A DNA stretch of 64,000 nucleotides, from positions 1 through 64,000 of the IMG/VR virus record IMGVR_UViG_3300043774_001004; one strand, written 5' to 3'. This document shows, one piece after another, positions 20,288-52,165 of the stretch. Under the pieces are notes generated by a model. It searched no databases, was not told where the DNA came from, and was given only the letters and a program-made list of their open reading frames with translations. A program made the position numbers and the translations under genes. Within the stretch, counting starts at the first letter, position 1; every line of letters begins with the position of its first letter. This DNA is from a virus.

Positions 20288-20302
20288 AAATAAACATAAG
20301 TA

Positions 20303-20659
20303 ATGAAAACCGTTCTTCTGTTTTTATTTTTGTTGTTTCCTTTTGTTTCCTTTTCACAAAAGGAATACAGGCTATTTGTATGTGGCGACTCTAAAGGTAA
20401 ACCTATCGGCGAGAACGTCTTAACCAGAACAGATCAGCTCTATGAAATCATGAAGACTGATTCTGGTATAGTAATTAAAAATCCAGCGCTAACACTTGTT
20501 AATGGTAAAAACTGGACATCAATTTATTTTAACGGAGAATACGAAGATACTTATCCTACTGAGTTTTTTGATTGCAGTAACTATTATGTAATAGATTTTA
20601 CACAAACTGGAAGTTGTTATTTCTTTTTTGAGGTTCACGCCGTCGACAAATCTTATTGA
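20303..20659 (+). CDS. Hypothetical secreted protein
   Basis: Signal peptide MKTVLLFLFLLFPFVSFS followed by Q. Confidence 0.6.
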   Translation: MKTVLLFLFLLFPFVSFSQKEYRLFVCGDSKGKPIGENVLTRTDQLYEIMKTDSGIVIKNPALTLVNGKNWTSIYFNGEYEDTYPTEFFDCSNYYVIDFTQTGSCYFFFEVHAVDKSY

Positions 20660-20666
20660 ACCTGTA

Positions 20667-20692
20667 AAACTTTTTTTCTTATAAAAGTATAT
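20667..20692 (+). promoter_or_regulatory. Class II promoter (AAAC-N17-TATA)
   Basis: Same motif and spacing at 25007, 26431, 26987, 27506, 35392, 43799. Confidence 0.55.
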
Positions 20693-20698
20693 TTATTG

Positions 20699-20823
20699 AA
20701 CAAGTAAACTGAGGATCAGAACGTATGCTGATGCCGGAGTAGACAGAGCTCGAAAACTACTGAAAGGCCTAGAGCCAAAGCCCGGGAGTCGCGACCCAGG
20801 AACGACAATAAAAGGCACTTGTT
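20699..20823 (+). ncRNA. Candidate ~125-nt structured ncRNA of unknown family
   Basis: GC-rich island; terminal stem AACAAGT/ACTTGTT; internal ATCAG/CTGAT and AGTAG/CTACT stems; starts just after a promoter motif. Confidence 0.45.
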
Positions 20824-20828
20824 TATAT

Positions 20829-20902
20829 GCACCCTTAGCTCAGACGGTTAGAGCAGCTGACTCATAATCAGCGGGTCACAGGTTCGATCCCTGTAGGGTG
20901 CA
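20829..20902 (+). tRNA. tRNA with CAT anticodon, probably Ile2 (lysidine type); elongator Met not excluded
   Basis: GCACCCT/AGGGTGC acceptor, GCTGA-CTCATAA-TCAGC arm, GGTTCGA T-loop; C4:G69 and C5:G68 pairs favour Ile2. Confidence 0.9.
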
Positions 20903-20914
20903 CTACTAAATATA

Positions 20915-20957
20915 CAGCAAAAGACTTTTACTTTCTAGTTTTTTATTGTATATTTAC
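20915..20957 (+). promoter_or_regulatory. Class I promoter (CAGCAAAAG...TATATTTAC)
   Basis: Bipartite motif repeated at 21441 and 33937 with identical spacing. Confidence 0.65.
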
Positions 20958-21024
20958 AACATAACAATTACAAATGGTATAAATCTATTAGCTCAAATAG
21001 TAGAGCAACATAGATATATACAAC

Positions 21025-21354
21025 ATGGAAAGAAATTGTAAAACAGAAGGCTGTGGAAATAAAACAAGAGGTCGCGGTAATTATTGTCATCCTTGTAGAA
21101 ATTCTATGAGAAGATATGGATTATCAACTATTGAAAGAGACACTTTACTTGAAAATCAAAGCAACAGATGTTTGATATGTAGTGAGACAATATCATTTGA
21201 TGGGAGTACAAGTCAATATAGTGCATGCGTAGATCATAGCCATATCACCGGTAAAGTGAGAGGTATACTTTGCGGCAATTGCAATACATGGCTTGGTTAT
21301 TTTGAGAAAAAGAACTTGTCTTTAGATGTTGTTAGAAATTATATGGTCCCGTAG
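21025..21354 (+). CDS. Endonuclease VII-family (His-Me finger) free-standing homing endonuclease
   Basis: RYGL...Q..RC.IC...VDHSH.TG.VRGILC..CN..LG; stop codon lies inside tRNA-Arg. Confidence 0.88.
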   Translation: MERNCKTEGCGNKTRGRGNYCHPCRNSMRRYGLSTIERDTLLENQSNRCLICSETISFDGSTSQYSACVDHSHITGKVRGILCGNCNTWLGYFEKKNLSLDVVRNYMVP

Positions 21355-21419
21355 CTCAGCTTGGATAGAGCAACAGATTTCTAATCTGTGGGTCACAGGT
21401 TCGAATCCTGTCGGGATCA
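21345..21419 (+). tRNA. tRNA-Arg(TCT)
   Basis: GGTCCCG/CGGGATC acceptor, ACAGA-TTTCTAA-TCTGT arm, GGTTCGAATCC. Confidence 0.95.
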
Positions 21420-21440
21420 CAACAGTAAATATGAAAAAAA

Positions 21441-21483
21441 CAGCAAAAGTCTTTCAAATCTGAAAACTTTTTATTAGTTTTAC
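21441..21483 (+). promoter_or_regulatory. Class I promoter upstream of the large ncRNA
   Basis: CAGCAAAAGTCT...TAGTTTTAC. Confidence 0.6.
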
Positions 21484-21494
21484 ATAAATACTAA

Positions 21495-22400
21495 CACAAA
21501 CGTTCTTTATTTATTAAAAAGATATCCATTTAGTGAAAGTAACTCTTCGGAGTGATGATAGCTAATAAAGATATTGGCCGCCTATAGTCATCAAATAAAC
21601 CGGGAAACCGGTATAAAGTGAACACAATCGTAAAGGTGTTTGCGGCCCATGATAACTTCGGTTACCATGGACTCGAGTAGGCAAGCAGGATATCACGATT
21701 TCTGAGTATCTGAGGGTAACACTGTAGGAGAAATGAAGTAGTGAATTGGCAATGTGGGTTGTCAGTTTGAGCTCGGAAGAGCAATAAGAATAACCTGTAG
21801 AAAGGTTGCAAAAAATATGTCCATCCAGATATATTATTGCGGTTTTCAATATTATAGAGTGCTTAAAGCCGAAAGGCAAGTCGGTGTACAAGTGGTGTTG
21901 TTACCTACCTTGATCTTAGCCTACCAAGGCATGCGTCACGAAGCAATCTTGAAATATGGAGATGGGGACATTTCAGAGAGTAGTTAAGTATTGACCCTGA
22001 CAAAATCGGGGTTAGCTTGGTCGACGGACCACTACTTTCACCGATCCACACACGAAAAAACTTACTTTGCAATTTTGGTGCAAAACCTAAGAACAAACTA
22101 AGCAAAAGTGTCCGCCAGTTGCAGACGAAAGGTGCTTACCTAGTAACCGGTTGTCGGTTGCCGCAAAAGGCCGCAAGTCTAATGTGATTTTCTAGAAAGC
22201 TTTATAACTCCGCAAGAGTGAATCAGGTCGGCAGACTTGAATAGATGTGAGTAAAGAGAGAGTAGTCTAAATAAAGCAACTTAAGGAGTGGTACACCTAA
22301 ATTACCAGCACTGTTAGAATAGTACTCAAAAGGTACTGGACAAAAGAGGAAACAATAATCTCTCTAAAGATCTAACGCTAAAGCTGTAGTCTCAGGCTTA
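21495..22400 (+). ncRNA. Large (~900 nt) ornate structured ncRNA, GOLLD-like candidate
   Basis: No credible ORF; raised GC; many cUUCGg and GNRA-capped hairpins; flanked by tRNAs; ends approximate. Confidence 0.65.
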
Positions 22401-22410
22401 TCTATTACAT

Positions 22411-22484
22411 CGCGAGTTGGTAGCAGTTGGTAGCTCGCCAGGCTCATAACCTGGAGGTCGGCGGTTCGAGTCCGTCACTCGCAA
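22411..22484 (+). tRNA. Initiator tRNA-fMet(CAT)
   Basis: CGCGAGT/ACTCGCA with C1:A72 mismatch; CCAGG-CTCATAA-CCTGG arm. Confidence 0.9.
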
Positions 22485-22496
22485 CAAATAAACAAC

Positions 22497-22520
22497 AGGC
22501 GGTTAATACCGCCTTTTTTT
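22497..22520 (+). terminator. Intrinsic terminator ending the ncRNA-tRNA unit
   Basis: AGGCGGT-taat-ACCGCCT followed by a T tract. Confidence 0.85.
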
Positions 22521-22675
22521 ATGTCAAATATATACCACAGATACTGTGGAATAGCTTTACGCTATTCGGTTCATAGGAACCCTTCTGATTGCTTCTTTGT
22601 ACGTTCATGTATGGCTAAAACCTAGAAACTACTTAAACTGATCTAACTTTCTCAAAATAAAAATAAACACCCTAA

Positions 22676-24958
22676 ATGAAAAATTTATTAGCGGCATTTG
22701 TTCTCTTTCTGCTTTCATTTGCAGTAAGCGCACAAAATCTAATCCAGGATGTTGACAAGCAATACATGTTAACACCTGAAAAAAACATCAACAAGAGTTT
22801 AGTTGATGCTTTCTTTGAGTTTTATAATATACCAGTAGTGGCGTATTTCGATAAACTCAATACCTATGTAGTTAAAGTTGAAGATTACCAGTACTTTTCA
22901 GATGTATGTAATCTCGTTGACTATTTTGCAATTATAGAAAAGGACCGTACTGAAACCGTTAAAATGGACTATATTCCTACGGATCCTGAATTTGTTTCAT
23001 GTTGGCACTTGAGACAATCTACTGACAAAGACATTGATGCTGATGAGGCATGGGATCTTTTACCAAATGGTAACCCATGGGTTTCAGTTGCAATGTTTGA
23101 TGGTGGTCTTGATTTAACGATACCTGATTTAGTAGGTAACACCGACAGCCCATTTAACGCAGTTAATGGAACTTCATCTGTTTCTTATGTTAACCTAGAA
23201 GATAAGCACGGTACAGCATGTTCAGGAACAATTGCTGCAGTTACAAATAACGACCTAGGCGTAGCCAGTGTAGGTAATAACAAGGTAAAAGTTATGCCTA
23301 TAAATATCATGTCACAGGTATATGCAGGCGGTAGTTTTTCTACAACATCTACAATACAGGTTGCTGCAGTGAACGCTGCAATGTCAAATCCTAATTGTGT
23401 TGCAATCGCAATGTCATATGGCGGAAGCAGCTATTCTTCAACACTTGAAAATGCGTTCTTAACTGCAAGAGAAAACGGTAGAGGCGGAAAAGGAATGATG
23501 ATATTTGCATCATCTGGAAACGGCTCTTCTGGCACAGCAGCTCAATACCCTGCTAATTTTAATGGAGTTTGGGGAGTTGGAGCCACTTCTTCTAGTGACT
23601 TGAAAGCTTCATTCTCTAACTTTGGTCAGATTTGTGATATATCTGCCCCTGGTGTTTCTATCAGAACTACAGATAGACTAGGTGCAGAAGGTTACAATTC
23701 TACGGATTACACGTCTATCAGTGGTACTTCATTTTCTTGCCCAATCACAGCAGCAGCTTCTGCAGTTATTGCATATAAGAATTGGGAACTAACAGACGAC
23801 GAAATTCTTCAGATACTGTCACAGACTTGTGAAAAGGTTGGAGGATATGTTTATTCTAATAACTCTGCTTGGCCTTACAGTACTCGCAGTAATGAATTAG
23901 GTTATGGTCGTATCAATCTTAAAGATGCTGTAATTGCAACACCTAATCCAGGCGGCACACCGCCACCTCCTCCTACACCTGTACATAACTTTTTTGTTGA
24001 ATCTTTGAATGTTACACCAGGTGTTGTAAATCTAGGTGAAATAATTGCAGTAAACTTTAATGTTAAAACTACAGAGCCTTCACTTGACACAGTTACTGTA
24101 TCAACTCAGTTTAGATATTCTACAAATACTACATGGGGTGATACAGATGATATTATCATTGGAAGTACAACATCTACATTAGGTGGCGGTGTTAGTACTG
24201 AAGCTGAATCTTTTACATTTACTGTCGGCGGAACTGCAGGTTCTAGGTACATACTAGCTAAAGTAAACTTTGACGGATCTGCTTCTGAAAGCAACCAAAC
24301 AGATAACACATCAACTAAAGTTTTTACAGTTAATGACCCAGCTTTCTTTGGTACAGATTTGAAAGTAGAGCTTTTCATGCCTAGTTCAAATCCTGTTACA
24401 ACTTCAGCACAGATCCTTAACACTAAATGGAAGATCACTAATCTTGGTAGCACTACTATTACAACTATATCTTATCTAAGACGTTGGGTGAATTGCCCAG
24501 GTAATAGTAGCACCACAGGTAGTTGTGTTCAAACTGTGGCTTGGACAGGTAATTTATTACCAGGTCAGGTTAGTTATTTGCCAGGTGATAATAGTTACAT
24601 CAGTGTAAACCTTTGTCAAAATTCTAACAGATGTGCTGTTCCAGTAGGAAGCAGTAACACCTATAGATTAGATATAATTTCAGTAAATGGTTTACAAGGT
24701 GATGGTAACACTTCTAATAACAGAGTAGATTTGGTTGTAAATCGCATATCTACAACTGAAGAAGATATAATCAGCAGCGAAATTATAGTTGAAGACCCTA
24801 TTGAAACTACTGGAGAAGAATTACCTATTTCAGTACAGTTTTACACAATAACTGGATCTTTACTAGATATTACAAGATTTGATGAACTACCTTCAGGTAT
24901 TTATATTGCAAAAGAAAATTATAAAGACTATACTCTAACGTATAAGTTGATTAAGTAA
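22676..24958 (+). CDS. Secreted S8 subtilisin-like serine protease with CARDB/Ig-like domains and T9SS-type C-terminal sorting domain
   Basis: Signal peptide (AVSA-Q); triad FDGG / HGT / GTSFSCP; SSGN oxyanion motif; C-terminus FYTITG...LPSGIYI...KLIK. Confidence 0.88.
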   Translation: MKNLLAAFVLFLLSFAVSAQNLIQDVDKQYMLTPEKNINKSLVDAFFEFYNIPVVAYFDKLNTYVVKVEDYQYFSDVCNLVDYFAIIEKDRTETVKMDYIPTDPEFVSCWHLRQSTDKDIDADEAWDLLPNGNPWVSVAMFDGGLDLTIPDLVGNTDSPFNAVNGTSSVSYVNLEDKHGTACSGTIAAVTNNDLGVASVGNNKVKVMPINIMSQVYAGGSFSTTSTIQVAAVNAAMSNPNCVAIAMSYGGSSYSSTLENAFLTARENGRGGKGMMIFASSGNGSSGTAAQYPANFNGVWGVGATSSSDLKASFSNFGQICDISAPGVSIRTTDRLGAEGYNSTDYTSISGTSFSCPITAAASAVIAYKNWELTDDEILQILSQTCEKVGGYVYSNNSAWPYSTRSNELGYGRINLKDAVIATPNPGGTPPPPPTPVHNFFVESLNVTPGVVNLGEIIAVNFNVKTTEPSLDTVTVSTQFRYSTNTTWGDTDDIIIGSTTSTLGGGVSTEAESFTFTVGGTAGSRYILAKVNFDGSASESNQTDNTSTKVFTVNDPAFFGTDLKVELFMPSSNPVTTSAQILNTKWKITNLGSTTITTISYLRRWVNCPGNSSTTGSCVQTVAWTGNLLPGQVSYLPGDNSYISVNLCQNSNRCAVPVGSSNTYRLDIISVNGLQGDGNTSNNRVDLVVNRISTTEEDIISSEIIVEDPIETTGEELPISVQFYTITGSLLDITRFDELPSGIYIAKENYKDYTLTYKLIK

Positions 24959-39474: not shown

Positions 39475-42400
39475 ATGCCGATACCTTTAAATGAGCCACC
39501 ACAGAGGATAACGAATGAACCGCCTACAGGGGTCATTAAGTTAACCAGAGAGCTTCAATTACTGAAGCCTGTGCTCACGTCTGATGGTGTCTTTACTGAT
39601 AGAATTACTCTTAACAATACATTTCTTGTTCTTGACTGGAATAACTGGCCTGAACTTGAATACGACGTCGTCGATGATCTTTATCAAATTAGAATAGGGG
39701 CATCAGGCACTAGTGGTACTGGTGGAATAGGAGCAGCTATCACAATTTTAGACGAGGGTAATCCTGTTACAACTAATGTCAGCTCAATCAATTTTGTAGG
39801 TGATATAATTACAGCACAGTCCCTAGATCCTCTCGATCCAACTGCAGTTACTGTAACTGTTACTACTCCTGCCCAAACCGAATTTTATTCATGTTCACCA
39901 TGGCAGATTTTAAGTACAAACAATACTCCGGCACTTCTTTCTACAAATAACGGCCGTGCAAATCTTAACGATAATACACCGCAATTTGTCAACACTCTAT
40001 ATTTACATGTAGATGACTTTAACGGTACAGATCAGGCTACATGGATAGATTCATGGCAGGACAGTGGAGCATATGGCTATATTAGTTTAACTGGTATTAC
40101 AACTGGCGCATACCTAAATGGTTATGTCACTGGTACTTTCCCAGGCACTAACACAAGAGAGATATACATAAATGTACTTTCTTATAGTTCAACTGATTTT
40201 ATAAATGGTGAAAAACTAGTTGTTTGTTTTACACAAAACGGTGCAAATGGTACATCTGGTTCAAGTGGTACATCAGGAACTAGCGGAGCAACATACGGCA
40301 CCAGTGGCTCATCTGGTACTAGAGGCACTAGTGGTACCAGCGGTAAAGGTACATCTGGCTCATCAGGTTCATCTGGCTCATCGGGTTCAAGTGGTACTAT
40401 AGGTACTTCAGGTACGTCTGGTACTACATTTGGATCTAGTGGTTTAGACGGTACAGCAGGTACAAGCGGTACTACTGGTATAGATGGTTCAAGCGGTACA
40501 TCTGGTCAAAATGGTACCAGCGGATCATCCGGATCCTCAGGTTCATCAGGAACCAGCGGTGTTACAGGTTCATCAGGAACCAGCGGTGTTACAGGTTCAT
40601 CAGGAACCAGCGGTGTTAATGGAACAAGTGGTATAGACGGTTCTAGTGGAACCAGTGGAGCTAATGGCACTAGAGGTACAAGTGGTACAAGTGGCAATAC
40701 AGGTTCTAGTGGAACTAGTGGAGCTAATGGCACTAGAGGTACAAGCGGTTTATCAGGAACGAGCGGTAATGATGGTTTAAATGGTTTACCGGGTACTTCA
40801 GGAACAAGTGGTTCAAGTGGCACTAGAGGGACATCTGGATTATCAGGTTCAAATGGAACCAGTGGTGTAACAGGTTCGTCAGGAACAAGTGGTGTTAATG
40901 GTTCTTCAGGAACAAGTGGTGCCAATGGCACAAGTGGTTCAAGCGGCACTAGAGGAACATCTGGATCTTCAGGTTCATCGGGAACAAGTGGTGTAACAGG
41001 TTCATCAGGAACCAGTGGTGCCAATGGCTCATCAGGAACCAGTGGTGCCAATGGCTCATCAGGAACCAGTGGTGCCAATGGCACTAGAGGCTCATCTGGA
41101 TCTTCAGGTTCATCAGGAACAAGTGGTAATACAGGTTCATCAGGAACAAGCGGTAATAATGGCTCAAATGGTACTAGAGGTTCAAGTGGCTCAAGCGGTA
41201 CTAGTGGTGTAGGTACAAGTGGTACTTCAGGTAATAATGGCTCAAATGGTACTAGAGGCTCATCTGGCTCAAGTGGTACATCAGGTCCTGCAGGTTCTTC
41301 AGGTACAAGCGGTGCTGATGGTAATAATGGCTCAAATGGTACTAGAGGTTCAAGTGGCTCAAGCGGTACTAGTGGTGTAGGTACAAGTGGTACTTCAGGT
41401 AATAATGGCTCAAATGGTACTAGAGGCTCATCTGGGTCAAGTGGTACATCAGGTCCTGCAGGTTCAAGCGGTACAAGCGGTGCTGATGGTAATAATGGCT
41501 CAAATGGTACTAGAGGTTCAAGTGGCTCAAGCGGTACTTCAGGTAATGATGGTTTAAATGGTACATCTGGTAGTAGCGGTTCGTCTGGAACTAGAGGTTC
41601 TTCAGGTACATCTGGTAGTAGCGGTTCGTCTGGCTCATCTGGCTCATCTGGCTCATCTGGTTCTTCAGGCACTTCAGGTACTAGAGGTACTTCAGGTACA
41701 TCTGGACAAGACGGAGCAGCTGCACCGGGTTGCTATGAGTATTTCTTAAAACTTAACGGTGCCACTGGAGGAAGCCCTTCAGCTCTGACTCCAGGTGAGG
41801 CATATCAAAACGTAGCAGCTGCTGCATCCATTACGGAATTTGCTATATACGAAATTGATGCTAACTCTCTAGATATTTCTTCTTTTCTAAATACTATAAC
41901 AGCAGGTTGTACAATTACAGTAACTGGTCAGACAAGTGGAGCAACTCTTACTGCAACCATTGGTTCAGTAAACATCATATCAGGTACAATATATCGTTTT
42001 ACAGGTTTAACTGTTATTGCATCTAGTGGTACTTTTATAACAGCGAATGTCGGTACAGAATTAGCATGGGTTTGTTTCTCATGTGCCGGTACAAGCGGTA
42101 ATAGCGGTACTTCAGGTACAAGTGCTGTAGGTACTTCGGGCACATCAGGAGCTAATGGTCTTTCTTTAGTTACTACAACGACTGGAGGAGGTGTAGTAGA
42201 AGTTAGCCCAGGTTGTTTTCAAAATACGGGTGCTGCAGGTTTTGGTAACTATGTCTATAGCGACCAGGCCTACACAAATGCATATATTTCAGTTACTATA
42301 TCAAATACTGGAGTATATGCAACAGGCTTAAGTACTAATCAAATACCCGTAGTTACATCACCTCCAGTAGCAGGTAATTATGACTATTGGATCTTCTTTG

Positions 42401-43800
42401 GTGCTGGAGGTACTGGTACAGCTTATGGCCCAGGTGGTGTTGTGTTAGCTAATTTTATAACACCTGGTTTCTTTTCAGCCGGTGATATTATAACAATCGT
42501 CTGGGATGGCTCACTTGCAACATATTATCAAAATGGTGTTGTAATAGCTACCACTACATTACCGCCTACAGGAGGAAACCCTCTATACGGTTCAACTGTT
42601 TTGAGCTCAACTGGTGACCAAGTATGTGACTTTATATTTGGACCAGTCGGACAAGGAGGTACTGGTACATCCGGTACTTCAGGCACAACAGGTCCTACAG
42701 GTACATCTGGTACTTCAGGAAACAATGGTACATCTGGTACAAGTGGAGCTAATGGTACAAGCGGTACTTCAGGTTCAAATGGCACTGCAGGTACTTCAGG
42801 TTCTTCATCAATATGCCCATGTATCTGTGCAGAATGGGTTATTAAACCTACAACAAATCCTGCAGCCGGTCAAGGAGTTCTAAATCCTACATTAGTTGCT
42901 ACAGGTATTACAAGCATCAATCTACACAATACTGACGCTAATTCTATAAACCAGGCGGCTTGGTTTGCTACATGGACCGGAGGCGGTAATTGGATAATGG
43001 TTGGTCAGTCAAGTGGAGCTACTGCAAGTGGCTTTACAACTAGTGTTAATACATCGCCTGGTGGTTTTACTGGCGTGTCACTCGGTGTTACAGTTGTTAG
43101 CGGTTCTGGAACTTTTACAGCAAATGAAACTATAACATTCTGCTTTGATCCAACAGGAGGTGGAGGAACAGGTACTTCAGGTACATCTGGAACTAGCCCC
43201 GGAGGAGGTGGCGGTACATCTGGTACTTCAGGATCATCTGGAACCAGAGGCACATCAGGTGTAAATGGAGCAACAGGTCCTGCAGGTACATCAGGAACAT
43301 CAGGTGCCGGAGGAGGAAAAGCTATAACGCCAATAGCAGAAAGTTCATGTCAAATTACAGACAATAGTACAATTTACGTAGGCGACTCGAAGGCAGGATG
43401 GGCAGGCCCCGGCTGGGATGTTCAGCGTACAGGAGGCTTGACGATCAGTATTAACAGTGCATGGTGTTTAATTAAAATACCAACAGAATTTACCGGCGGT
43501 GTTGATGCGTTTAAACTATGTGCTTCAGGTTATTGTGCTTCATGTGACGATTCTGACAATATCGGCGCAGCCGTATGGATTGTAAGTTGTGCAGATCTTG
43601 AAGGTGCTACAACTGATATTGATCTTGTACTCTGGGACAATTTTAGTACTAAGTATTATAGAAACGGAACTTTTTGTCTTACCGGATCAGATAAAGCCCC
43701 TAAGACAATTCCAGCATGTGATATGCTTCTTATAGGTTTTTATTCTACTGGTGGTACATCCGATACCGTTAATATAACCTGGCGATTAGACGAGGTATAA
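39475..43800 (+). CDS. Large fibre-like protein with (Gly-Ser/Thr-Ser)n collagen-like repeats and Cys-bounded globular domains
   Basis: About 490 aa of almost uninterrupted G-X-Y triplets (GTS, GSS, GTR, GAN) plus three related ~120-aa domains. Confidence 0.8.
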   Translation: MPIPLNEPPQRITNEPPTGVIKLTRELQLLKPVLTSDGVFTDRITLNNTFLVLDWNNWPELEYDVVDDLYQIRIGASGTSGTGGIGAAITILDEGNPVTTNVSSINFVGDIITAQSLDPLDPTAVTVTVTTPAQTEFYSCSPWQILSTNNTPALLSTNNGRANLNDNTPQFVNTLYLHVDDFNGTDQATWIDSWQDSGAYGYISLTGITTGAYLNGYVTGTFPGTNTREIYINVLSYSSTDFINGEKLVVCFTQNGANGTSGSSGTSGTSGATYGTSGSSGTRGTSGTSGKGTSGSSGSSGSSGSSGTIGTSGTSGTTFGSSGLDGTAGTSGTTGIDGSSGTSGQNGTSGSSGSSGSSGTSGVTGSSGTSGVTGSSGTSGVNGTSGIDGSSGTSGANGTRGTSGTSGNTGSSGTSGANGTRGTSGLSGTSGNDGLNGLPGTSGTSGSSGTRGTSGLSGSNGTSGVTGSSGTSGVNGSSGTSGANGTSGSSGTRGTSGSSGSSGTSGVTGSSGTSGANGSSGTSGANGSSGTSGANGTRGSSGSSGSSGTSGNTGSSGTSGNNGSNGTRGSSGSSGTSGVGTSGTSGNNGSNGTRGSSGSSGTSGPAGSSGTSGADGNNGSNGTRGSSGSSGTSGVGTSGTSGNNGSNGTRGSSGSSGTSGPAGSSGTSGADGNNGSNGTRGSSGSSGTSGNDGLNGTSGSSGSSGTRGSSGTSGSSGSSGSSGSSGSSGSSGTSGTRGTSGTSGQDGAAAPGCYEYFLKLNGATGGSPSALTPGEAYQNVAAAASITEFAIYEIDANSLDISSFLNTITAGCTITVTGQTSGATLTATIGSVNIISGTIYRFTGLTVIASSGTFITANVGTELAWVCFSCAGTSGNSGTSGTSAVGTSGTSGANGLSLVTTTTGGGVVEVSPGCFQNTGAAGFGNYVYSDQAYTNAYISVTISNTGVYATGLSTNQIPVVTSPPVAGNYDYWIFFGAGGTGTAYGPGGVVLANFITPGFFSAGDIITIVWDGSLATYYQNGVVIATTTLPPTGGNPLYGSTVLSSTGDQVCDFIFGPVGQGGTGTSGTSGTTGPTGTSGTSGNNGTSGTSGANGTSGTSGSNGTAGTSGSSSICPCICAEWVIKPTTNPAAGQGVLNPTLVATGITSINLHNTDANSINQAAWFATWTGGGNWIMVGQSSGATASGFTTSVNTSPGGFTGVSLGVTVVSGSGTFTANETITFCFDPTGGGGTGTSGTSGTSPGGGGGTSGTSGSSGTRGTSGVNGATGPAGTSGTSGAGGGKAITPIAESSCQITDNSTIYVGDSKAGWAGPGWDVQRTGGLTISINSAWCLIKIPTEFTGGVDAFKLCASGYCASCDDSDNIGAAVWIVSCADLEGATTDIDLVLWDNFSTKYYRNGTFCLTGSDKAPKTIPACDMLLIGFYSTGGTSDTVNITWRLDEV
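40240..41710 (+). repeat. Gly-X-Y coding repeat tract including a 168-bp tandem duplication
   Basis: GGTAATAATGGCTCAAATGGTACTAGAGGTTCAAGT at 41152, 41320, 41488. Confidence 0.9.
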
Positions 43801-43837: not shown

Positions 43838-45502
43838 ATGCAGAGACTTTTAGTAATAACCCCACATCTTTCTACCGGCGGTTTACCACAATTTCTTTAT
43901 AAAAAACTTACTGTACTCAAGGATCGATTTGAGATACATGTAGTAGAATGGGATGATATTACAGGTGGTGTCTTGGTCGTACAAAGAAACCTGATTAAGA
44001 ATCTAGTTGGCCAAAATTTCTATACACTTGGCGCTAATAAAAATCAAATTCTAGAAATCATACAACGGGTTAAACCCAATGTCATTCACTTTGAAGAATT
44101 TCCAGAAACTTTTATAGACACTAAACTCGCCCAACGTATATTTTCTGATAAAGGATATTACATTACCGAAACTACACATGGTACTGGCTTTAAAAAAGAG
44201 GATAAACTTTTCAAGGCTGATAAAACCATGTTTGTTTCTGATATCAATTATACGCAATACGACTCTGTTACAAACAGGTCTGAGGTTATCAAACACCCAA
44301 TAGTCAAGAACAGAGAGTCTATTTTATTAGAATTAGGTTTAGATCCAGATTATTTTCATGTCTTAAATGTCGGCCTATTTACACCTGGTAAAAATCAGGC
44401 TGAGATCATTGGATATGCAAGAAGGCTAAAGGATAAAAAAATACAATTCCATTTTGTTGGCAATCAGGCTGGTAATTTTGAAAGTTACTGGAAGCCAATA
44501 ATGGATAGTCTTCCAGATAATTGTAGAGTATGGGGTGAGAGAAATGATGTCTACAGATTCTACAGCGCCATGGACCTGTTTCTGTTTACCTCTATGCTTG
44601 AGAATAGACCCCTTTCTGTGTTAGAAGCCTTAGCCTATAATATGCCAGTGCTGATGTACAATCTCGATAACTACGGCACCGAATTTTCAAATATCGAAGG
44701 TATAAGATTTCTGACAACATTTGAAGAAAATCTAAAAATGATTTATCCAGATATAGAAGAAAAGGTCGAAGAACCTTTCTATACACCCTTTGTTGAAATA
44801 CAAGAAACTGTAGTAGATTTGCCAGAAGGAATACCATGCATACCATGTAAAAATAAGGTTACAGCAATGCATATCTTGACTGATATTGACACTCCTCGTG
44901 AAATTAGATCAATGCAGTCTTTGACAAAACTAAAAGATAGAAAAATCAACTATATTCCTGTAGTCAGTAAAAGATATACTGAATTACCACCTGCTGAAAC
45001 ATGTCAATATCCAGAAAGGATTAGCATGGAACCTGGAGGTAAACTTACACCAGGTCACTATGGTTGTTATCTAGGTCACAGAAAGGCATTTGAAATGGGT
45101 CTAGAAACAAATAGTGACTTTTTACTTATATTTGAATGTGATGCCGTGATAGATGTGCCAATGGCCGAGTTTATGAAAAAGCTTAACTATGCCTGCACTG
45201 TATTACAAGAAACTGATCTTTTCTGGTTTTCATTTGGTTTCCATAACAATACAAACATTATAGAAAAGAATGAAAATTATTGGATAGTTGATGGCTTCTT
45301 TGGAGCACATGCCTATCTGATACCTAAAAAATCATTCGCCGAATTTAAAGAAATGTATGAAAAGAGCAAATGGAATGTAGCAGACCTATTATTTGTAGAA
45401 AAACTAAGTCACAAGAAAGCCGGTATATTTGAAAAGCCTTTAACATTACAGGCTGCAGGTTATTCTATACTTGATAAAATTGAAACCAATGACAGACACT
45501 AG
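43838..45502 (+). CDS. Fusion glycosyltransferase (GT4-like N-terminus + GT25-like C-terminus)
   Basis: HLSTGG.P, VGLFTPGKNQ, E.RPL..LEAL; GHYGCYLGH, IFECDA, GAHAYL. Confidence 0.8.
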   Translation: MQRLLVITPHLSTGGLPQFLYKKLTVLKDRFEIHVVEWDDITGGVLVVQRNLIKNLVGQNFYTLGANKNQILEIIQRVKPNVIHFEEFPETFIDTKLAQRIFSDKGYYITETTHGTGFKKEDKLFKADKTMFVSDINYTQYDSVTNRSEVIKHPIVKNRESILLELGLDPDYFHVLNVGLFTPGKNQAEIIGYARRLKDKKIQFHFVGNQAGNFESYWKPIMDSLPDNCRVWGERNDVYRFYSAMDLFLFTSMLENRPLSVLEALAYNMPVLMYNLDNYGTEFSNIEGIRFLTTFEENLKMIYPDIEEKVEEPFYTPFVEIQETVVDLPEGIPCIPCKNKVTAMHILTDIDTPREIRSMQSLTKLKDRKINYIPVVSKRYTELPPAETCQYPERISMEPGGKLTPGHYGCYLGHRKAFEMGLETNSDFLLIFECDAVIDVPMAEFMKKLNYACTVLQETDLFWFSFGFHNNTNIIEKNENYWIVDGFFGAHAYLIPKKSFAEFKEMYEKSKWNVADLLFVEKLSHKKAGIFEKPLTLQAAGYSILDKIETNDRH

Positions 45503-47048
45503 AAAAGGATTCATAATTACCTATTTTAAGACATCAGACCAGGGTGAGCAATTGCTTAAAGATCTTGTAGACACGATGAGTCGTGAAAACTATTATCTGG
45601 TTTTGGCTTCACATTCACCTGTGCCAGTTGAAATTTATTCAAAGTGTGATTACTATATTTACCAGGAATTAAATGTTGTAGATAATAGAAAATACTCACA
45701 TGGCGTTGCAGAAAGCAACCTGATAGAACTTGCGCTTCTCCATCTAGCATATAAAGAAATTGAATGGACTTATAAAGTATGTTATGATATTCAAGTCAAT
45801 GATGTAACCCATTTTGAAAATTGGATAAAGGATGGCTACAATTTTGTAACATGTAATTGGGGTGAATACTACGTTTGCACTAATTCATTTTATGGTAGCG
45901 TTGATTGGCTTTTATCAAACATAACATTCTACAAAAAAGTGAATGAAATGTTTTCAGACAGCAATGTACTTGAATTATGTTGGCAAAAATCAATAGAAAA
46001 CAACGGTCTTAAGGGTGAAGTTTACACATGGTCAAACAAGACTGAGTTTTTTGGGCCTAATAAGATTGACATTCTTTATTATGACTATGACAGATTTCAG
46101 TTTTGGTATAGTGAAGATGAGCGAAGGTTTTATATACAAAATAATGGGTCTAACATCAGCTGTGAAGTTAAAATTTTTGAGTATTACACTGATCTATGCA
46201 TTTACGGAAACAGATTTAATTTATCTACAAATGATTCCCACTGGGTAATTCCACCAATGTCTGAATTTGTAAATAATTGCAAAAATGGTTTTTATGCTGA
46301 ATTTTACATTGACGGTAATGTCATTAGAAAAAACATAAACATTAGAAATTTTGAAGAAAAACATCCTCTTTCAAAAACATTTAAAGTCTTAAAAAAGGGT
46401 GAAAAAAGATTCGCAGAGTATGTTGCATTCAATGAATATCTCCAGTACAGACACTTAAATATAGATCTAGATAAAATTAAAAACTATGTAGATATTGGTG
46501 CTAATTATGGTTTTGCTAGTTTACCTTTCACGGAAAGAAAGTCTAAGATATACATGGTCGATGCGGATAAGGGTAATATAGATCTATTAAATGAGACATA
46601 TGGTAATCGACATAATATAAAAATAATCTATAAAGCGATTTGTGATGTAGACGGTTCTGTAGATTTTTATAATGATGTACATAACAGCCTTGTTTCTAGT
46701 ATAGATCCAATCGGACACGGTGGAGATAGTGTTAGAAATAAAGTCACTGTTCCTTCAATGACGATCAATACATTTATGGATAAGTATTTAGAAGAAGATG
46801 AGGTTGATTTAATGAAAATTGATATAGAAGGTGCAGAATATAGTTTATTCAGGGCTGCAACTGAAGCAAATCTTAAAAGAGTAAAAAGTTTTTTGATTGA
46901 GTTTCACGGTAATGATAATTTTCAAATAATGGAAATTATACAAAAATTGGCTAAATGTGATTTTAATTATAGAATCGATAATAGCTGGGGAAAAAATGAC
47001 GAGTATATGGTTGAAAATAAAGCAGGTATAATTTATGCATGGAGATAA
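45489..47048 (+). CDS. FkbM-family methyltransferase fused to an unknown GT-like N-terminal domain
   Basis: VDIGANYG, DLMKIDIEGAE, IEFH. Confidence 0.8.
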   Translation: MTDTRKGFIITYFKTSDQGEQLLKDLVDTMSRENYYLVLASHSPVPVEIYSKCDYYIYQELNVVDNRKYSHGVAESNLIELALLHLAYKEIEWTYKVCYDIQVNDVTHFENWIKDGYNFVTCNWGEYYVCTNSFYGSVDWLLSNITFYKKVNEMFSDSNVLELCWQKSIENNGLKGEVYTWSNKTEFFGPNKIDILYYDYDRFQFWYSEDERRFYIQNNGSNISCEVKIFEYYTDLCIYGNRFNLSTNDSHWVIPPMSEFVNNCKNGFYAEFYIDGNVIRKNINIRNFEEKHPLSKTFKVLKKGEKRFAEYVAFNEYLQYRHLNIDLDKIKNYVDIGANYGFASLPFTERKSKIYMVDADKGNIDLLNETYGNRHNIKIIYKAICDVDGSVDFYNDVHNSLVSSIDPIGHGGDSVRNKVTVPSMTINTFMDKYLEEDEVDLMKIDIEGAEYSLFRAATEANLKRVKSFLIEFHGNDNFQIMEIIQKLAKCDFNYRIDNSWGKNDEYMVENKAGIIYAWR

Positions 47049-49308
47049 AGTAAAATCTAGACTAATTGGTGGTTTCATCGAAGTCGAAAACATTACAGGT
47101 CAGTTATTAAACAACTGTGTTGTTTCTTTGAGAAATATATTTTCAGGTAATCTTATTTTCGAAAAAACGACTCTTCGTCCGGGTGAAATAAAGAAGTTTC
47201 CGATAATAGGGCCTTCAACATTTAGAAGCCAATGGGAGGATGAAGCGCTTAACCTTAGGGTTTATAGCAACCATAGTCTTGTGCACAAGAAAATGTTTAA
47301 AGACAAAACTAAATGCTTTGTTGTTATATCAAATGATAAATTTGAAAAGATTGCTGAGCAGTTAATAATCGGTTTAACAAGATATTCAAACATTGATATT
47401 TTACATTATACCATAGGTTATAAGTCTAGCTTAAATTATAGATATCTCCAAAATATTGAATTTGATCTAAAGGGCGATATTAACGATCAGCAGTATATGC
47501 AATTTTCAAAGCCTCCGGTGTTTTTAGATGTCTTAAACAGGGGTTACAAAGCTGCTGTTTTTATAGATGCTGATGTGCAAGTTAGAAGCAATGTCGAAGA
47601 TCTTTTCGGTTATATCAATCAGATAGAAGACGGTCCTGTATTCCATAAATCACCCCATGAGTTTACAGTTGTCCATAATATGTACATACCAGGCCCATTA
47701 CTTTCGGGTTTAATGGATCTCGGTATAGAAAAACAGTTAGCGCCACAGGGTATTACAAATGTCGTTATATTTAATCAAACACATAGAGACCTATTTGAGG
47801 AATGGAATACACTTTGTTTTTCAAAAGAAATTGAAGAAATCAGAAAAACGGAGTTTTTACATGATGAGCTCCTGATAAATTGTTTAATGTGGAAGAAGGG
47901 AGTTAAACCAAAACTTTTCTTTCTGACAACAAATGTCAATACAATAAAAGACATTGAATTTTTCTACCATCATACTAAGAATTATTCCCCGCAGACAGAT
48001 CTGAATGAATACGACCTTGGCTTTTTTGCACAATCTTTTATCAACTATGAATCGGAAACTATATGTGGATTCCATTGTGTTAAAGATCCTGAAGTTGCAA
48101 AAAAAATAAATGATCTAATATACAAAAATGAAATAGGCCTTAGTTTCAAAGATGAGATTACTAACTTCTATGAAAACTTAGAAGTTTCTGATACTAGATT
48201 CTTTGAAGAGAAAAAGCCCATAATGATTAACCACTATATAAATGGCCCTTATCTGGAAATAAAGGGTAGTGGCGATAGAAATTTCAATGTCAAGTTTCTC
48301 GACGGTAAATTAAATACTATTTATGAAAGTAGAATAGGTTGCAATATGTGGTCTAGACCGTCGGCGAGATATTATGATGAATACACTACACAGGTTTTCG
48401 AAAACGGTGAACTTGTATATGATGAAAAAATAAATCTTAAAGGTAAAAGGGTCTATATCAGTTTAGACTCAAGTTCTTTAGGCGACACATTTGCATGGTT
48501 TCCATATGCTGAAGAGTTTAGAAAAAAACATGGATGCCATGTAGTAGTTTCAACTTTCATGAATGACTTGTTTAAAGATCAATATCCAGATCTAGAATTT
48601 GTAGCACCTGGTACTAATGTCCAAGGCATTTATGCAATGTATAACATCGGCTGGTACTATGATGATAAAGATCAGCCAGATCTCTCCAGGAATAAAGTTG
48701 ACTTTAAAGCTATACCTTTACAGATGACGGCCACTGAAATACTTGGTCTAGAATATAAAGAGGTTAAGCCACTTATCAAAGTTCCTAAAGTTGAAAAGAA
48801 GAAGAAGGTAGGTCTAGGTATACATTCAACGGCACAGGCAAAATACTGGAATAATCCAACTGGCTGGCAAGAGGTTACAGATTATTTAATAGCAAATGGT
48901 TATGAAGTTGTCATATATTCAAAAGAAGGTGACGACTACATGGGTAATAAATTTCCTAAAGGTGCCACTAAGTTTCCAAATGGCCCAATTGAAAATGTAA
49001 TTGAGGATATGGCCTCTTGTGAATTTTTTATAGGCATTGGATCAGGGTTAAGTTGGTTAGCATGGGCAGTTGGTCTCCCAATGTTTTTGATTTCAGGATT
49101 TAGTGAAGAGTATTCTGAGCCTACAGAAAACGTGGTTAGAATCATCAATAAAGACGTATGCCATGGATGCTTTAACAAGCACAGGCTTGATCCTGGCGAC
49201 TGGAACTGGTGTCCGTTACACAAGGGTACCGAAAGACAATTTGAATGTACTAAAAGCATTACAGGACAGACCGTTATCGGTAAAATAAAAGAAGTACTAA
49301 GCAAATAA
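47035..49308 (+). CDS. AAH/TibC (BAHT)-type protein O-heptosyltransferase-like domain fused to a GT-A domain
   Basis: SSLGD..AW.PY.EEFRKKH, STAQAKYWNNP.GW, FIG.GSGLSWLAW, iron-finger CHGC...WCP.H...FEC; N-terminal FIDAD DxD motif. Confidence 0.85.
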   Translation: MHGDKVKSRLIGGFIEVENITGQLLNNCVVSLRNIFSGNLIFEKTTLRPGEIKKFPIIGPSTFRSQWEDEALNLRVYSNHSLVHKKMFKDKTKCFVVISNDKFEKIAEQLIIGLTRYSNIDILHYTIGYKSSLNYRYLQNIEFDLKGDINDQQYMQFSKPPVFLDVLNRGYKAAVFIDADVQVRSNVEDLFGYINQIEDGPVFHKSPHEFTVVHNMYIPGPLLSGLMDLGIEKQLAPQGITNVVIFNQTHRDLFEEWNTLCFSKEIEEIRKTEFLHDELLINCLMWKKGVKPKLFFLTTNVNTIKDIEFFYHHTKNYSPQTDLNEYDLGFFAQSFINYESETICGFHCVKDPEVAKKINDLIYKNEIGLSFKDEITNFYENLEVSDTRFFEEKKPIMINHYINGPYLEIKGSGDRNFNVKFLDGKLNTIYESRIGCNMWSRPSARYYDEYTTQVFENGELVYDEKINLKGKRVYISLDSSSLGDTFAWFPYAEEFRKKHGCHVVVSTFMNDLFKDQYPDLEFVAPGTNVQGIYAMYNIGWYYDDKDQPDLSRNKVDFKAIPLQMTATEILGLEYKEVKPLIKVPKVEKKKKVGLGIHSTAQAKYWNNPTGWQEVTDYLIANGYEVVIYSKEGDDYMGNKFPKGATKFPNGPIENVIEDMASCEFFIGIGSGLSWLAWAVGLPMFLISGFSEEYSEPTENVVRIINKDVCHGCFNKHRLDPGDWNWCPLHKGTERQFECTKSITGQTVIGKIKEVLSK

Positions 49309-49310
49309 GT

Positions 49311-50369
49311 ATGGAATCAAACGAGGTTATAATTATTCTAGCACATTGCGATAACAGCAATAAACTTGAAATACTTGAGGAATGTATCGAATTGTGTAAA
49401 AAACAAAATAGGAAAATTATAATTTCAACAAATTATAAATTACCTGAAAGGATATATGAAAAAGTAGATTACATCGTATATGAAAAGGAAAACAGGTTAA
49501 TTTACCATTATGAAAATATACCAAGTGGGTATAGTTTTTTTATAAATTTCCCAACATACTGGCATATTCAAAGGGTTGAGTATGATATCGGTTATGCTGC
49601 TTTACAATTGATAAAAAACGGTTTAAGCCTTTCAGTGCAAAAAGGATTTGTTAAATCACATTTTGTAAATTATGACTATCTAATACGCGAAGAAAACTTT
49701 TTTGAAAAATATGCAGCACTGTTAGGCTTAGAATATGATGCTATTTCATATTATTTTTGCCATGATTTTTTCTTTAACACTGGCATGTTTTCAGTCATTA
49801 ACAAAACATTTTCTGAGACTTTAAAATCAGTTAATAATGTTTATGAGTATAGCAAATTACACAATGATGCCATATCATATAATGGTAACAACGGCGTTCT
49901 TGAAGGTATGCTGGATTATCTTTTTTATAAAAATAATTTAAAGTATCTAAAAGTAAAAGAAGAAAAGCTGGACGCAGAAATCAACGATTTCAATAAATTG
50001 TGTATCTTTTCAAGAAACAATTTTATAGAAAATACAGATATTGAAGTTTATAAATCAACCGATGGTTTAGACTATTATCTTACGTTTATAAATCCCGGAA
50101 ACGATAAATCTGACATAATAGAAATAAAATCAGAAGATGAAATTATATCAATTAAATTCAATGAAATAATAGAGTATGTCAATGGTATAACAGGAATGCC
50201 CTTGTTTGTATTAAAGTTATCTGATAGTCTAGCCGGTAAAAACATTATAGTCAATGTACCGACTAGGGGTTCTAAACTTATTAAGAGCAACTATAGTATA
50301 GCATCATGTGAAATACGCGACAAAAGAATTATATTTACAGATGATGTCTTAATACAAAAATCGAATTAA
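49311..50369 (+). CDS. Hypothetical protein with GT-like domain shared with neighbours
   Basis: IIILAHCDN...VDY.VY...HFVNYDY resembles the N-termini of 50403 and 45489. Confidence 0.55.
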   Translation: MESNEVIIILAHCDNSNKLEILEECIELCKKQNRKIIISTNYKLPERIYEKVDYIVYEKENRLIYHYENIPSGYSFFINFPTYWHIQRVEYDIGYAALQLIKNGLSLSVQKGFVKSHFVNYDYLIREENFFEKYAALLGLEYDAISYYFCHDFFFNTGMFSVINKTFSETLKSVNNVYEYSKLHNDAISYNGNNGVLEGMLDYLFYKNNLKYLKVKEEKLDAEINDFNKLCIFSRNNFIENTDIEVYKSTDGLDYYLTFINPGNDKSDIIEIKSEDEIISIKFNEIIEYVNGITGMPLFVLKLSDSLAGKNIIVNVPTRGSKLIKSNYSIASCEIRDKRIIFTDDVLIQKSN

Positions 50370-50402
50370 ACAAAACTGATTATAACCTTACAAATCAAGA
50401 TT

Positions 50403-52103: not shown

Positions 52104-52165
52104 AAATAAACTACTATAATAAACAAATCTATTACAAACAATATAAATCAAAAATAATAAAGATT

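What the first reader, a model, noticed from the sequence alone, without database searches (positions are those of the whole stretch)
21495..22400. ~900-nt ornate non-coding RNA embedded in the tRNA cluster
Seen: about 900 bp without a credible gene in a densely coding genome. It has its own class I promoter and runs into tRNA-fMet and a terminator. Hairpins include ACTC-TTCG-GAGT (21542), ACCGG-GAAA-CCGGT (21599), CCATGATAAC-TTCG-GTTACCATGG (21647), GCTC-GGAA-GAGC (21771), GCC-GAAA-GGC (21868), ACTC-CGCAA-GAGT (22207) and TCAGGTC-GGCA-GACTTGA (22223). Known: GOLLD (~800 nt) and ROOL RNAs are large phage-associated RNAs often next to tRNAs, with unknown function. Inference: a GOLLD-like or new giant RNA in a Bacteroidota jumbo phage.
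Basis: partly seen in the sequence, partly recalled or inferred. Interest (0 to 1): 0.8.

Follow-up and report, generated by a model that had tools for sequence, protein, structure and literature searches.

The report
Known GOLLD cage RNA in lake phage
The gene-free 900 bases encode an ordinary, full-length member of the known phage RNA family GOLLD, whose members assemble into hollow RNA cages. It is real and present in RNA libraries, but not a new kind of RNA.

Summary
All seven hairpins are at the stated coordinates, no ORF is conserved, and the stretch runs from a promoter-like box to a tRNA-Met and a strong terminator.

It is a GOLLD RNA. Rfam RF02032 matches window 21976-22398 (+) over the whole model at 271 bits, against a cut-off of 150. 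That match is the conserved 3' domain.

The 5' domain (21576-21975) is collinear with the env-38 GOLLD solved by cryo-EM as a 14-mer cage. In 55 non-redundant IMG/VR relatives its 119 predicted pairs are 94% paired, against 36-44% when partners are slid, and 91 pairs carry compensatory changes.

Contigs at least 99% identical occur in 13 metatranscriptome runs from 6 studies.

Incremental points:
- A conserved 5' box and a leader stem-loop (21500-21574) lie outside the published construct.
- Bacteroidota-type -7 boxes lie upstream in 25 of 46 loci, against 1.3 expected.
- An initiator-type tRNA-Met starts 8-22 nt (my end-marker measure) downstream in 14-15 of 47 relatives.

Function stays unknown, as for the whole family. 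This scan has noted GOLLD many times on other DNA. Novelty and interest are low.

The parts
21440..21454 (+). 15-mer ACAGCAAAAGTCTTT, repeated after the preceding tRNA as well (20914-20928). It may be the upstream part of the promoter region.
   Evidence: two exact copies, each just behind a tRNA gene. Four matches at up to 2 mismatches against 1.0 expected. Its function was not tested.
21452..21482 (+). Promoter-like region: TTTC (21452-21455), 19 nt, then the -7 box TAGTTTTA (21475-21482), resembling the Bacteroidota TTG / TAnnTTTG promoter. The inferred start of transcription is about 21487-21492.
   Evidence: The same box type lies 21-36 nt upstream of the conserved RNA start in 25 of 46 relatives (1.3 expected), and 22 of those have TTG 15-26 nt further upstream. 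The window's own -33 element is imperfect. The start site is inferred, not measured.
21500..21517 (+). Conserved single-stranded 5' box ACGUUCUUU... at the start of the RNA.
   Evidence: GTTCTTT is nearly invariant across relatives. No complementary partner was found elsewhere in the RNA. It lies outside the published env-38 construct.
21522..21574 (+). Leader stem-loop, here called 'P0': outer stem AUAUC/GAUAU (21522-21526 with 21570-21574), inner stem 21530-21534 with 21561-21565, apex hairpin ACUC-UUCG-GAGU (21542-21553).
   Evidence: per-sequence folds give the same architecture in most relatives with different helix sequences (AUUAUC/GAUAAU, UUUAC/GUAAA, UGUAC/GUACA, UUCAC/GUGAA). An RNA-library contig reaches back to 21534. 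There is no formal covariation statistic.
21576..21975 (+). GOLLD 5' domain, the cap-forming domain in env-38. It includes the invariant GAAA loops (21604-21607, 21871-21874) and the GGAA hairpin with the CAAUAAGAAUAAC signature (21771-21794).
   Evidence: 119 pairs in 21 helices, 94.2% paired, 91 pairs with changes on both sides, covariation score 0.536 against about 0.09 for slid controls. It is collinear with the env-38 construct.
21976..22398 (+). GOLLD 3' domain, the match to the Rfam model. The variable linker is about 22042-22116.
   Evidence: RF02032, 271.1 bits (cut-off 150), E = 3e-76, model positions 1-416 of 416.
22117..22126 (+). 5' strand (AGUUGCAGAC) of the long-range pairing with 22265-22268 and 22276-22281. 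In env-38 this pairing is an intermolecular kissing bridge (B7, L20 with J13/15).
   Evidence: alignment: all 10 bracketed pairs are standard pairs. Interpretation from PMC12286853.
22207..22240 (+). Twin hairpins P21a (loop CGCAA, 22211-22215) and P21b (22223-22240, loop region UCGGCAG).
   Evidence: The loop sequences are the same as in env-38, where they form the self-kissing bridges B8 and B9 that join the two half-cages.
22411..22485 (+). tRNA-Met (CAU) of initiator type, 12 nt after the GOLLD 3' end and probably co-transcribed.
   Evidence: C1xA72 mismatch, A73, two G:C pairs next to the anticodon loop. The D arm is irregular (Rfam tRNA score only 38 bits).
22497..22521 (+). Intrinsic terminator AGGCGGT-TAAT-ACCGCCT followed by TTTTTTT.
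21345..21420 (+). Upstream tRNA-Arg (UCU) of the same tRNA cluster.
   Evidence: The closest relative, L084, has the same tRNA-Arg / GOLLD / tRNA-Met order.

Best explanation
Window about 21490/21500-22398 (+) is the gene for a full-length GOLLD RNA. The core is 823 nt, and about 900 nt with a 5' leader. It sits in the tRNA cluster of an uncultured freshwater myovirus-like phage.

Shown here:
- Family membership.
- The two-domain architecture with a variable linker.
- Extensive covariation in the 5' domain.
- Presence in RNA libraries.

Inferred:
- It is transcribed by the host RNA polymerase from its own Bacteroidota-type promoter, as one unit with the initiator-type tRNA-Met and up to the terminator at 22497.
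- Its 3' end is released when the tRNA is processed (RNase P cut at 22410/22411, then trimming back to the terminal hairpin at about 22397).
- Like its close structural relative env-38, it folds into a 5' 'cap' domain and a 3' 'ring' domain and self-assembles, without protein, into a closed dihedral 12- to 14-mer RNA cage with the linker facing inward. The window retains the elements that bridge chains in env-38: the 10-bp L20-J13/15 complement, the L21a CGCAA loop, the L21b UCGGCAG loop and the GAAA loop.

What the cage does is unknown for the whole family. My best guess, at about 0.2, is a role tied to the phage's take-over of translation. It rests on the family's linkage to tRNA arrays, the adjacency to initiator tRNA seen here, and the published pull-down of ribosomes.
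For: - Rfam RF02032 hit at 271.1 bits against a cut-off of 150, full model 1-416. No other large-RNA family hit anywhere in the window.
- A 20-nt signature of the 5' domain finds 115 IMG/VR contigs. 93 of the 95 sequences with full coverage (window included) align over 260-970 nt to the window at 65-88% identity. Two of the 115 hits are chance.
- The 5' domain consensus structure has 21 helices, 94.2% of cells paired against 36-44% slid, and 91 of 119 pairs with compensatory changes; 0 of 500 shuffles reach it.
- The env-38 cryo-EM construct carries the same signature and the same order of motifs, and starts at the equivalent of window 21574.
- Published structure and context: 14-mer D7 cage, phage origin, near tRNAs (PMC12286853); dodecamer for a shorter GOLLD (PMC12990946).
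- 13 metatranscriptome runs from 6 studies hold at least 66% of its 31-mers.
- Contigs at least 99% alike were laid from RNA libraries of 3 studies, one of only 6.4 million letters. Contigs of all three stop at 22396/22397 where the DNA run continues, which is a weak hint of a 3' end.
- A same-strand tRNA follows within 5-26 nt in 19 of 47 relatives. 16 of these are tRNA-Met, and 14-15 of those are initiator-type.
- Promoter boxes are enriched upstream: 25 of 46 loci against 1.3 expected.
- The terminator follows the tRNA.
Against: - Nothing argues against family membership.
- RNA ends, strand and level cannot be read from contigs. The start site, co-transcription with the tRNA and the processing route are therefore inferred.
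- The window's own -33 element is imperfect (TTTC).
- Relative to env-38, the window and most relatives have a plain GAAA-capped hairpin (21868-21877) where env-38 has a longer element. The literature shows that such peripheral differences change stoichiometry, so 14-mer against 12-mer is open.
- Cage assembly was not and cannot be tested here.
- The relatives are phylogenetically related, so the tRNA-Met adjacency counts are not independent events.
Confidence: 0.95

Rival explanations
1. A new large RNA family that only resembles GOLLD (or a ROOL, group I/II intron or RNase P RNA).
For: The 5' 480 nt get no Rfam hit of their own, because the Rfam model covers only the 3' domain.
Against: The 3' domain matches the whole GOLLD model far above the cut-off. 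The 5' domain is collinear with the env-38 GOLLD and shares its signature. No ROOL, intron or RNase P model matches even at E up to 1 in 21300-22600.
Confidence: 0.01
2. The stretch encodes one or more small proteins, for example the 109-aa ORF on the minus strand (21562-21891) or the 77-aa ORF on the plus strand (21754-21987).
For: These ORFs exist. The 109-aa ORF is also open in the closest relative, L084.
Against: Across 47 relatives the longest ORF changes strand, frame and length, from 41 to 129 aa. The substitutions are those of paired RNA helices.
Confidence: 0.01
3. A GOLLD gene that acts in the cell not as an empty RNA-only cage but as a monomer or ribonucleoprotein. It could serve as a decoy or sponge for host nucleases or defence proteins, or as a long structured leader that stabilises and times release of the initiator tRNA.
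For: - The function of the family is unknown.
- The conserved 5' box and P0 leader are absent from the solved constructs.
- Adjacency to the tRNA is tight, a 12-nt gap here and 5-26 nt (measured from my end marker, 1 nt past the model end) in 19 of 47 relatives.
- The 'inhibited storage' idea for embedded tRNAs is in print.
Against: - Cages form at 12.5 nM without protein, and the bridge motifs covary.
- The window keeps those motifs.
- In many relatives no tRNA directly follows, so the RNA is not merely a tRNA leader.
Confidence: 0.15
4. A decaying, non-functional GOLLD remnant.
For: One C.A mismatch in the first hairpin of the core (21575-21590), and a 7-nt insertion (AAAUAAA) in the L20 loop.
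Against: The match is full-length with every helix of the model present. It is present in RNA libraries at least 99% identical. The closest relative, L084, keeps the same locus order.
Confidence: 0.02

Closest known systems
GOLLD RNA env-38 (Rfam RF02032; cryo-EM 14-mer, PDB 9MEE; Kretsch et al. 2025, PMC12286853)
   Same: - Same family and the same type of 5' domain: collinear motifs and a shared CAAUAAGAAUAAC signature.
- Same 3' domain, with identical L21a and L21b loop motifs.
- Same L20-J13/15 complement.
- Similar size: 823 nt against 833 nt.
- Environmental phage origin, next to a tRNA-Met.
   Different: - The window has a plain GAAA hairpin where env-38 has an extended element, as do about 46 of the 57 aligned sequences.
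- It has a 7-nt insert in L20.
- It carries a conserved 5' box and leader hairpin upstream of the construct's first base.
- The source is freshwater, not marine.
- Its oligomer number is unknown.
Streptococcus agalactiae GOLLD (dodecamer, PDB 9L0R; reviewed in PMC12990946)
   Same: Same family and same 3' domain core; a self-assembling dihedral cage.
   Different: The S. agalactiae RNA is about 700 nt and lacks P9, P11a-c and P21b. The window has the twin P21a/P21b hairpins and a longer 5' domain.
GOLLD in mycobacterial tRNA arrays (PMC6582537; Morgado et al. 2020, cited in PMC12990946)
   Same: It is embedded in a horizontally moving tRNA cluster together with an HNH/endonuclease gene. Here that gene is the Endonuclease VII-family ORF 21025-21354.
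   Different: The mycobacterial copies carry a tRNA or pseudo-tRNA inside the linker. The window's linker is about 75 nt and holds none.
ROOL RNA (Rfam; octameric cage)
   Same: A large phage-associated RNA near tRNAs that forms an RNA-only cage.
   Different: Unrelated sequence and fold. No ROOL hit in the window.

Membership tests
GOLLD RNA (RF02032) | Match to the family covariance model above the curated gathering score | tested here: met
   271.1 bits against 150, model 1-416 of 416, E = 3e-76
GOLLD RNA (RF02032) | Two-domain build: a less conserved structured 5' domain, a variable linker, and a conserved 3' domain | tested here: met
   5' domain 21576-21975 with 21 covarying helices. The linker is about 22042-22116, unaligned and A-rich. 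The 3' domain is the Rfam match.
GOLLD RNA (RF02032) | Long-range complementarity between L20 and J13/15 (the pseudoknot of the model, an intermolecular bridge in the structure) | tested here: met
   22117-22126 pairs with 22265-22268 and 22276-22281; all 10 pairs are standard
GOLLD RNA (RF02032) | Length of about 700-850 nt or more | tested here: met
   823 nt from 21576 to 22398, about 900 nt with the leader. Relatives measure 837-919 nt.
GOLLD RNA (RF02032) | Phage or prophage location beside tRNA genes | tested here: met
   Terminase and tail sheath genes in the window. tRNAs lie 79 nt upstream and 12 nt downstream.
GOLLD RNA (RF02032) | Made as a stable RNA | tested here: inconclusive
   Contigs at least 99% alike occur in metatranscriptome libraries of several studies. 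Contigs cannot show ends, strand or level.
GOLLD RNA, env-38 structural class | 5' domain homologous to that of env-38 | tested here: met
   The signature motif is found in the env-38 construct. The same order of conserved motifs was read by eye against the published construct. No computed alignment was made, because that sequence may not be typed into tools.
GOLLD RNA, env-38 structural class | Self-assembly into a closed RNA-only dihedral cage (14-mer in env-38) | not testable with these tools
   Only the bridge motifs could be checked: L21a CGCAA, L21b UCGGCAG, the GAAA loop and the L20 complement are present.
ROOL RNA, group I/II introns, RNase P RNA | Match to the respective Rfam models | tested here: not met
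   No hit at the gathering threshold in the window, and none at E up to 1 in 21300-22600

The most novel reading that the evidence does not exclude
GOLLD and the phage's initiator tRNA form one selected expression module. The native RNA starts with a conserved 5' box and leader hairpin that the solved constructs lack. It is released from a GOLLD-tRNA-fMet precursor, and the cage acts in the phage's take-over of translation initiation, for instance by holding back or delivering initiator tRNA or by capturing ribosomes. The evidence does not exclude this. An initiator-type tRNA-Met lies within about 420 nt (mostly within about 300 nt) in roughly half of 47 non-redundant relatives, on either side. 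The 5' box is nearly invariant and has no pairing partner.
Probability: 0.12. Interest if true: 0.65.

Novelty: new member of a known kind. Interest (0 to 1): 0.2.

Why it matters
Mostly it settles the finding: the 'giant unknown RNA' is GOLLD, described in 2009 and solved by cryo-EM in 2025, so no new RNA class is at stake.

Four modest points may help people working on this family, whose function is still unknown:
- This lake subfamily is common in IMG/VR, with 113 true contigs, many from genomes of 200-480 kb.
- It appears to be driven by host-type Bacteroidota promoters.
- The conserved RNA probably starts about 75 nt upstream of the boundary used for structural work.
- It is very often followed or preceded by an initiator-type tRNA-Met.

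Tried and rejected
- Leader consensus: RNAalifold on an automatic alignment of the leader (21500-21590 and 30 relatives) gave no consensus helix beyond the first core hairpin. A column-by-column pairing scan on A2 was uninformative in this AU-rich, indel-rich part. Support for P0 therefore rests on per-sequence folds.
- Partner for the 5' box: a search for a complementary partner of GUUCUUU found no consistent site.
- RNA libraries, flanks: in the three RNA libraries laid, the flanking tRNAs and protein genes (20300-21520 and 22409-23600) had no cover, while the DNA run covered them.
- RNA libraries, 5' edges: contig edges at 21576 (two runs) and 21534 (one run) coincide with variant break-points (loose ends). 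They were not taken as RNA 5' ends.
- Literature: Weinberg et al. 2009 (PMC4140389) is not held. The supplement search for L21a, L21b, L11a and L20 found nothing. Bridge-by-bridge mapping to env-38 numbering was therefore limited to motifs readable in the main text and in the construct sequence.
- Host: no type IX secretion sorting domain or other host-specific marker was detected in the neighbouring S8 peptidase. The host call rests on promoter type and distant terminase relatives only.
- tRNA fragment: no Rfam hit for the tRNA-like fragment at 20983-21016.
- Phage records: blastn against phage records found only one relative of the RNA body (LR745206, a 635-kb uncultured phage). The other hits were to the tRNA.

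Full report
**What is there**

Window 21421-22410 lies between tRNA-Arg(UCU) (21345-21420) and tRNA-Met(CAU) (22411-22485), all on the + strand. It holds no credible gene: only short ORFs on both strands. The rest of the window is tightly packed with + strand genes. The 5' half folds better than all 100 dinucleotide shuffles, z = -3.5.

**Identity**

A scan of the whole window against Rfam 15 gives one large-RNA hit. GOLLD (RF02032) matches 21976-22398 (+) at 271.1 bits against a gathering score of 150, E = 3e-76, covering model positions 1-416 of 416 (repeated on the whole 89.8-kb record). No ROOL, intron or RNase P model matches, even at E up to 1 in 21300-22600.

The Rfam model covers only the conserved 3' domain of GOLLD. 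The literature describes a universally conserved 3' region, a less conserved 5' region and a variable linker (PMC12286853). The 480 nt upstream should therefore be the 5' domain.

**The 5' domain**

blastn against phage records found one relative of this part, the 635-kb uncultured phage LR745206. There a tRNA-Met, a homologous 5' domain and a GOLLD 3' domain (287 bits) follow each other in the same way.

A 20-nt signature shared by the two (GGAAGNNCAATAAGAATAAC) finds 115 IMG/VR contigs. Two of those are chance hits. 93 of the 95 sequences with full coverage (the window itself included) align to the window over 260-970 nt at 65-88% identity. They collapse to 57 clusters at 94% identity, 55 without the two chance hits.

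On the alignment of the 57 sequences (A2), the RNAalifold consensus has 119 pairs in 21 helices.
- 94.2% of cells are standard pairs, against 36-44% when the 3' partners are slid by 1-3 columns.
- 91 pairs show changes on both sides.
- The covariation score is 0.536 against about 0.09 for the slid controls.
- None of 500 shuffles reaches any of the observed measures.

Those at 22207 and 22223 are the twin hairpins of the Rfam model.

**Relation to the solved structure**

The construct of GOLLD env-38 used for cryo-EM is printed in the paper's supplement. It contains the same signature. Read side by side, it shows the same order of conserved motifs as the window:
- GGCCGC..UAUGGUC
- AAAUAAA-hairpin-GAAA-AUAAAGUG
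- UGCGG
- GAGUAGGCAAG
- GAUAUC
- GAGGGUAAC
- the GGAA hairpin with CAAUAAGAAUAAC
- GUGGUG
- the start of the 3' domain

The construct begins at the equivalent of window 21574 and ends at the equivalent of 22398. The window's GOLLD core is therefore 823 nt, against 833 nt for env-38.

The elements that bridge chains in env-38 are present in the window:
- the 10-bp complement between J13/15 (22117-22126) and L20 (22265-22268 and 22276-22281);
- the L21a loop CGCAA, with its self-complementary GC;
- the L21b loop region UCGGCAG, identical to env-38;
- a conserved GAAA loop (21871-21874).

One difference stands out. Where env-38 has a longer element, the window and most relatives have a plain GAAA-capped hairpin. 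The review PMC12990946 shows that such peripheral differences shift the assembly between 10, 12 and 14 chains. I therefore do not commit to a number.

**Transcription unit (inferred)**

The conserved RNA starts with a nearly invariant box, ACGUUCUUU (21500). In 25 of 46 relatives with enough flank, a box TAnnTTT[G/A] begins 21-36 nt upstream of it, against 1.3 expected from the background rate. In 22 of those 25 a TTG lies 15-26 nt further up. This is the promoter type known from Bacteroidota; the consensus TTG / TAnnTTTG is quoted from my knowledge of the Bacteroides and Flavobacterium promoter literature. The window has TAGTTTTA at 21475-21482, with an imperfect TTTC 19 nt upstream.

Between the box and the GOLLD core lies a leader stem-loop, which I call P0 (21522-21574). 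Per-sequence folds give it the same architecture in most relatives with different helix sequences. The automatic alignments were too poor there for a formal test. Both the box and P0 lie outside the published construct.

Downstream, the tRNA-Met starts 12 nt after the GOLLD end. It has the initiator hallmarks C1xA72 and A73 and two G:C pairs next to the anticodon loop, but an irregular D arm. A strong intrinsic terminator follows at 22497-22514.

In 19 of 47 non-redundant relatives a same-strand tRNA starts 5-26 nt after GOLLD. 16 of these are tRNA-Met, and 14-15 of those are initiator-type. Several other relatives have an initiator-type tRNA-Met 26-414 nt upstream instead. These distances are taken from my end marker, which lies 1 nt past the model end, so on this measure the window's 12-nt gap reads as 11. 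These loci are related, so the counts are not independent events. Even so, the adjacency persists through rearrangement. env-38 also lies next to a Met-tRNA.

I infer that the RNA is co-transcribed with the tRNA and released through tRNA 5' processing plus trimming.

**Expression**

13 metatranscriptome runs from 6 studies hold at least 66% of the RNA's sampled 31-mers. I laid four runs on 20300-23600.
- The DNA run covers the whole stretch.
- The RNA libraries of three studies yield contigs at least 99% identical to the window.
- One of those is a single 821-nt contig, 21576-22396.
- Another comes from a library of only 6.4 million letters, at word depths of 86-149 for its two long contigs.
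- The contigs of all three studies stop at 22396/22397, where the DNA run goes on.
- One RNA contig reaches back to 21534, so the apex of the leader is in RNA.

Contigs cannot give strand, ends or level. The lack of cover on the flanks is not counted as evidence.

**Host and phage**

The record is 89.8 kb, estimated 42% complete. It encodes a large terminase and a tail sheath. The terminase is nearest to uncultured huge phages, at 48% and 38% identity, the latter being LR745206. Next come Sphingomonas phage PAU and the Tenacibaculum and Flavobacterium phages, at about 29-34%. Together with the promoter type, 'Bacteroidota jumbo phage' is plausible but not shown.

**Function**

No function is known for any GOLLD. 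I commit to the following, with odds.
- About 0.95: it is a stable non-coding GOLLD RNA.
- About 0.7: it self-assembles into a closed RNA-only cage of 12-14 chains, as its relatives do.
- About 0.6: it is made as a precursor with the initiator tRNA.
- About 0.2: its role concerns the phage's handling of translation. This rests on the family's tie to tRNA arrays, the initiator-tRNA adjacency seen here, and the ribosome pull-down cited in PMC12286853.

**Novelty**

This is an ordinary member of a family known since 2009, from the very habitat in its name (lake). This scan has noted GOLLD on other DNA many times: 10,022 notes mention it. Two earlier notes prompted checks here.
- No tRNA, ordinary or otherwise detectable, sits in the about 75-nt linker.
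- There is no room for a 400-nt trailing RNA behind the tRNA-Met. Only 190 nt, with a terminator, separate it from the next gene.

The incremental points are the 5' box and leader, the promoter type, the initiator-tRNA linkage and the presence in lake RNA libraries. They are worth recording but do not change the class.

Noticed in passing
window 20914-20928 and 21440-21454: The 15-mer ACAGCAAAAGNCTTT occurs 11 and 20 nt after two tRNA genes. Each copy is followed about 20-35 nt later by a TAnnTTTA box. A weaker copy lies at 33936.
   Followed up: partly
window 21025-21354 (+), and 20983-21016: An Endonuclease VII-family ORF (PF02945, 109 aa) sits between tRNAs, and its last 10 nt overlap tRNA-Arg. 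Just upstream is a hairpin enclosing a tRNA D-arm-like GCTCAAATAGTAGAGC, which has no Rfam hit. tRNA arrays with GOLLD and an HNH-type endonuclease are also described in mycobacteria (PMC6582537).
   Followed up: partly
relatives L005, L008, L012, L018, L034, L042, L084, L100 and others; window 22411-22485: The tRNA-Met genes that directly flank GOLLD are of the initiator type: a 1:72 mismatch or U:A, and GG or GGG closing the anticodon stem. tRNA-Met genes further away in the same arrays are of the G1:C72 elongator or Ile2-like type.
   Followed up: partly
window 22676-24958 (+): A 760-aa subtilisin-like S8 peptidase with a hydrophobic N-terminal signal-like segment lies directly after the GOLLD-tRNA unit. 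No type IX secretion sorting domain was detected.
   Followed up: partly
window 39475-43800 and 43838-54518: A collagen-like repeat tail-fibre protein (1441 aa) is followed by a run of genes resembling glycosyltransferases, methyltransferases and a sialyltransferase. This may be a phage-encoded glycan-modification cluster.
   Followed up: no
relatives L005, L012, L034, L035, L042, L114, L002, L027: the 15-20 nt before the ACGUUCUUU box: Many relatives have a short hairpin between the -7 box and the conserved 5' box, which would sit at the very 5' end of the transcript. The window lacks it.
   Followed up: no
RNA runs X4 and X6 laid on window 21576-22011: Loose ends at 21576, 21622, 21748, 21935 and 21992 show that several GOLLD variants of this subfamily co-occur in the same lake RNA samples.
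   Followed up: no
window 22515-22675: The 160-nt spacer after the terminator holds two short hairpins (CCACAGATACTGTGG and GGTTCATAGGAACC). No RNA family matches there apart from a sub-threshold STnc50 match at 22486-22559 on the minus strand (24.6 bits against a gathering score of 55, E = 0.18), which I take as chance.
   Followed up: no
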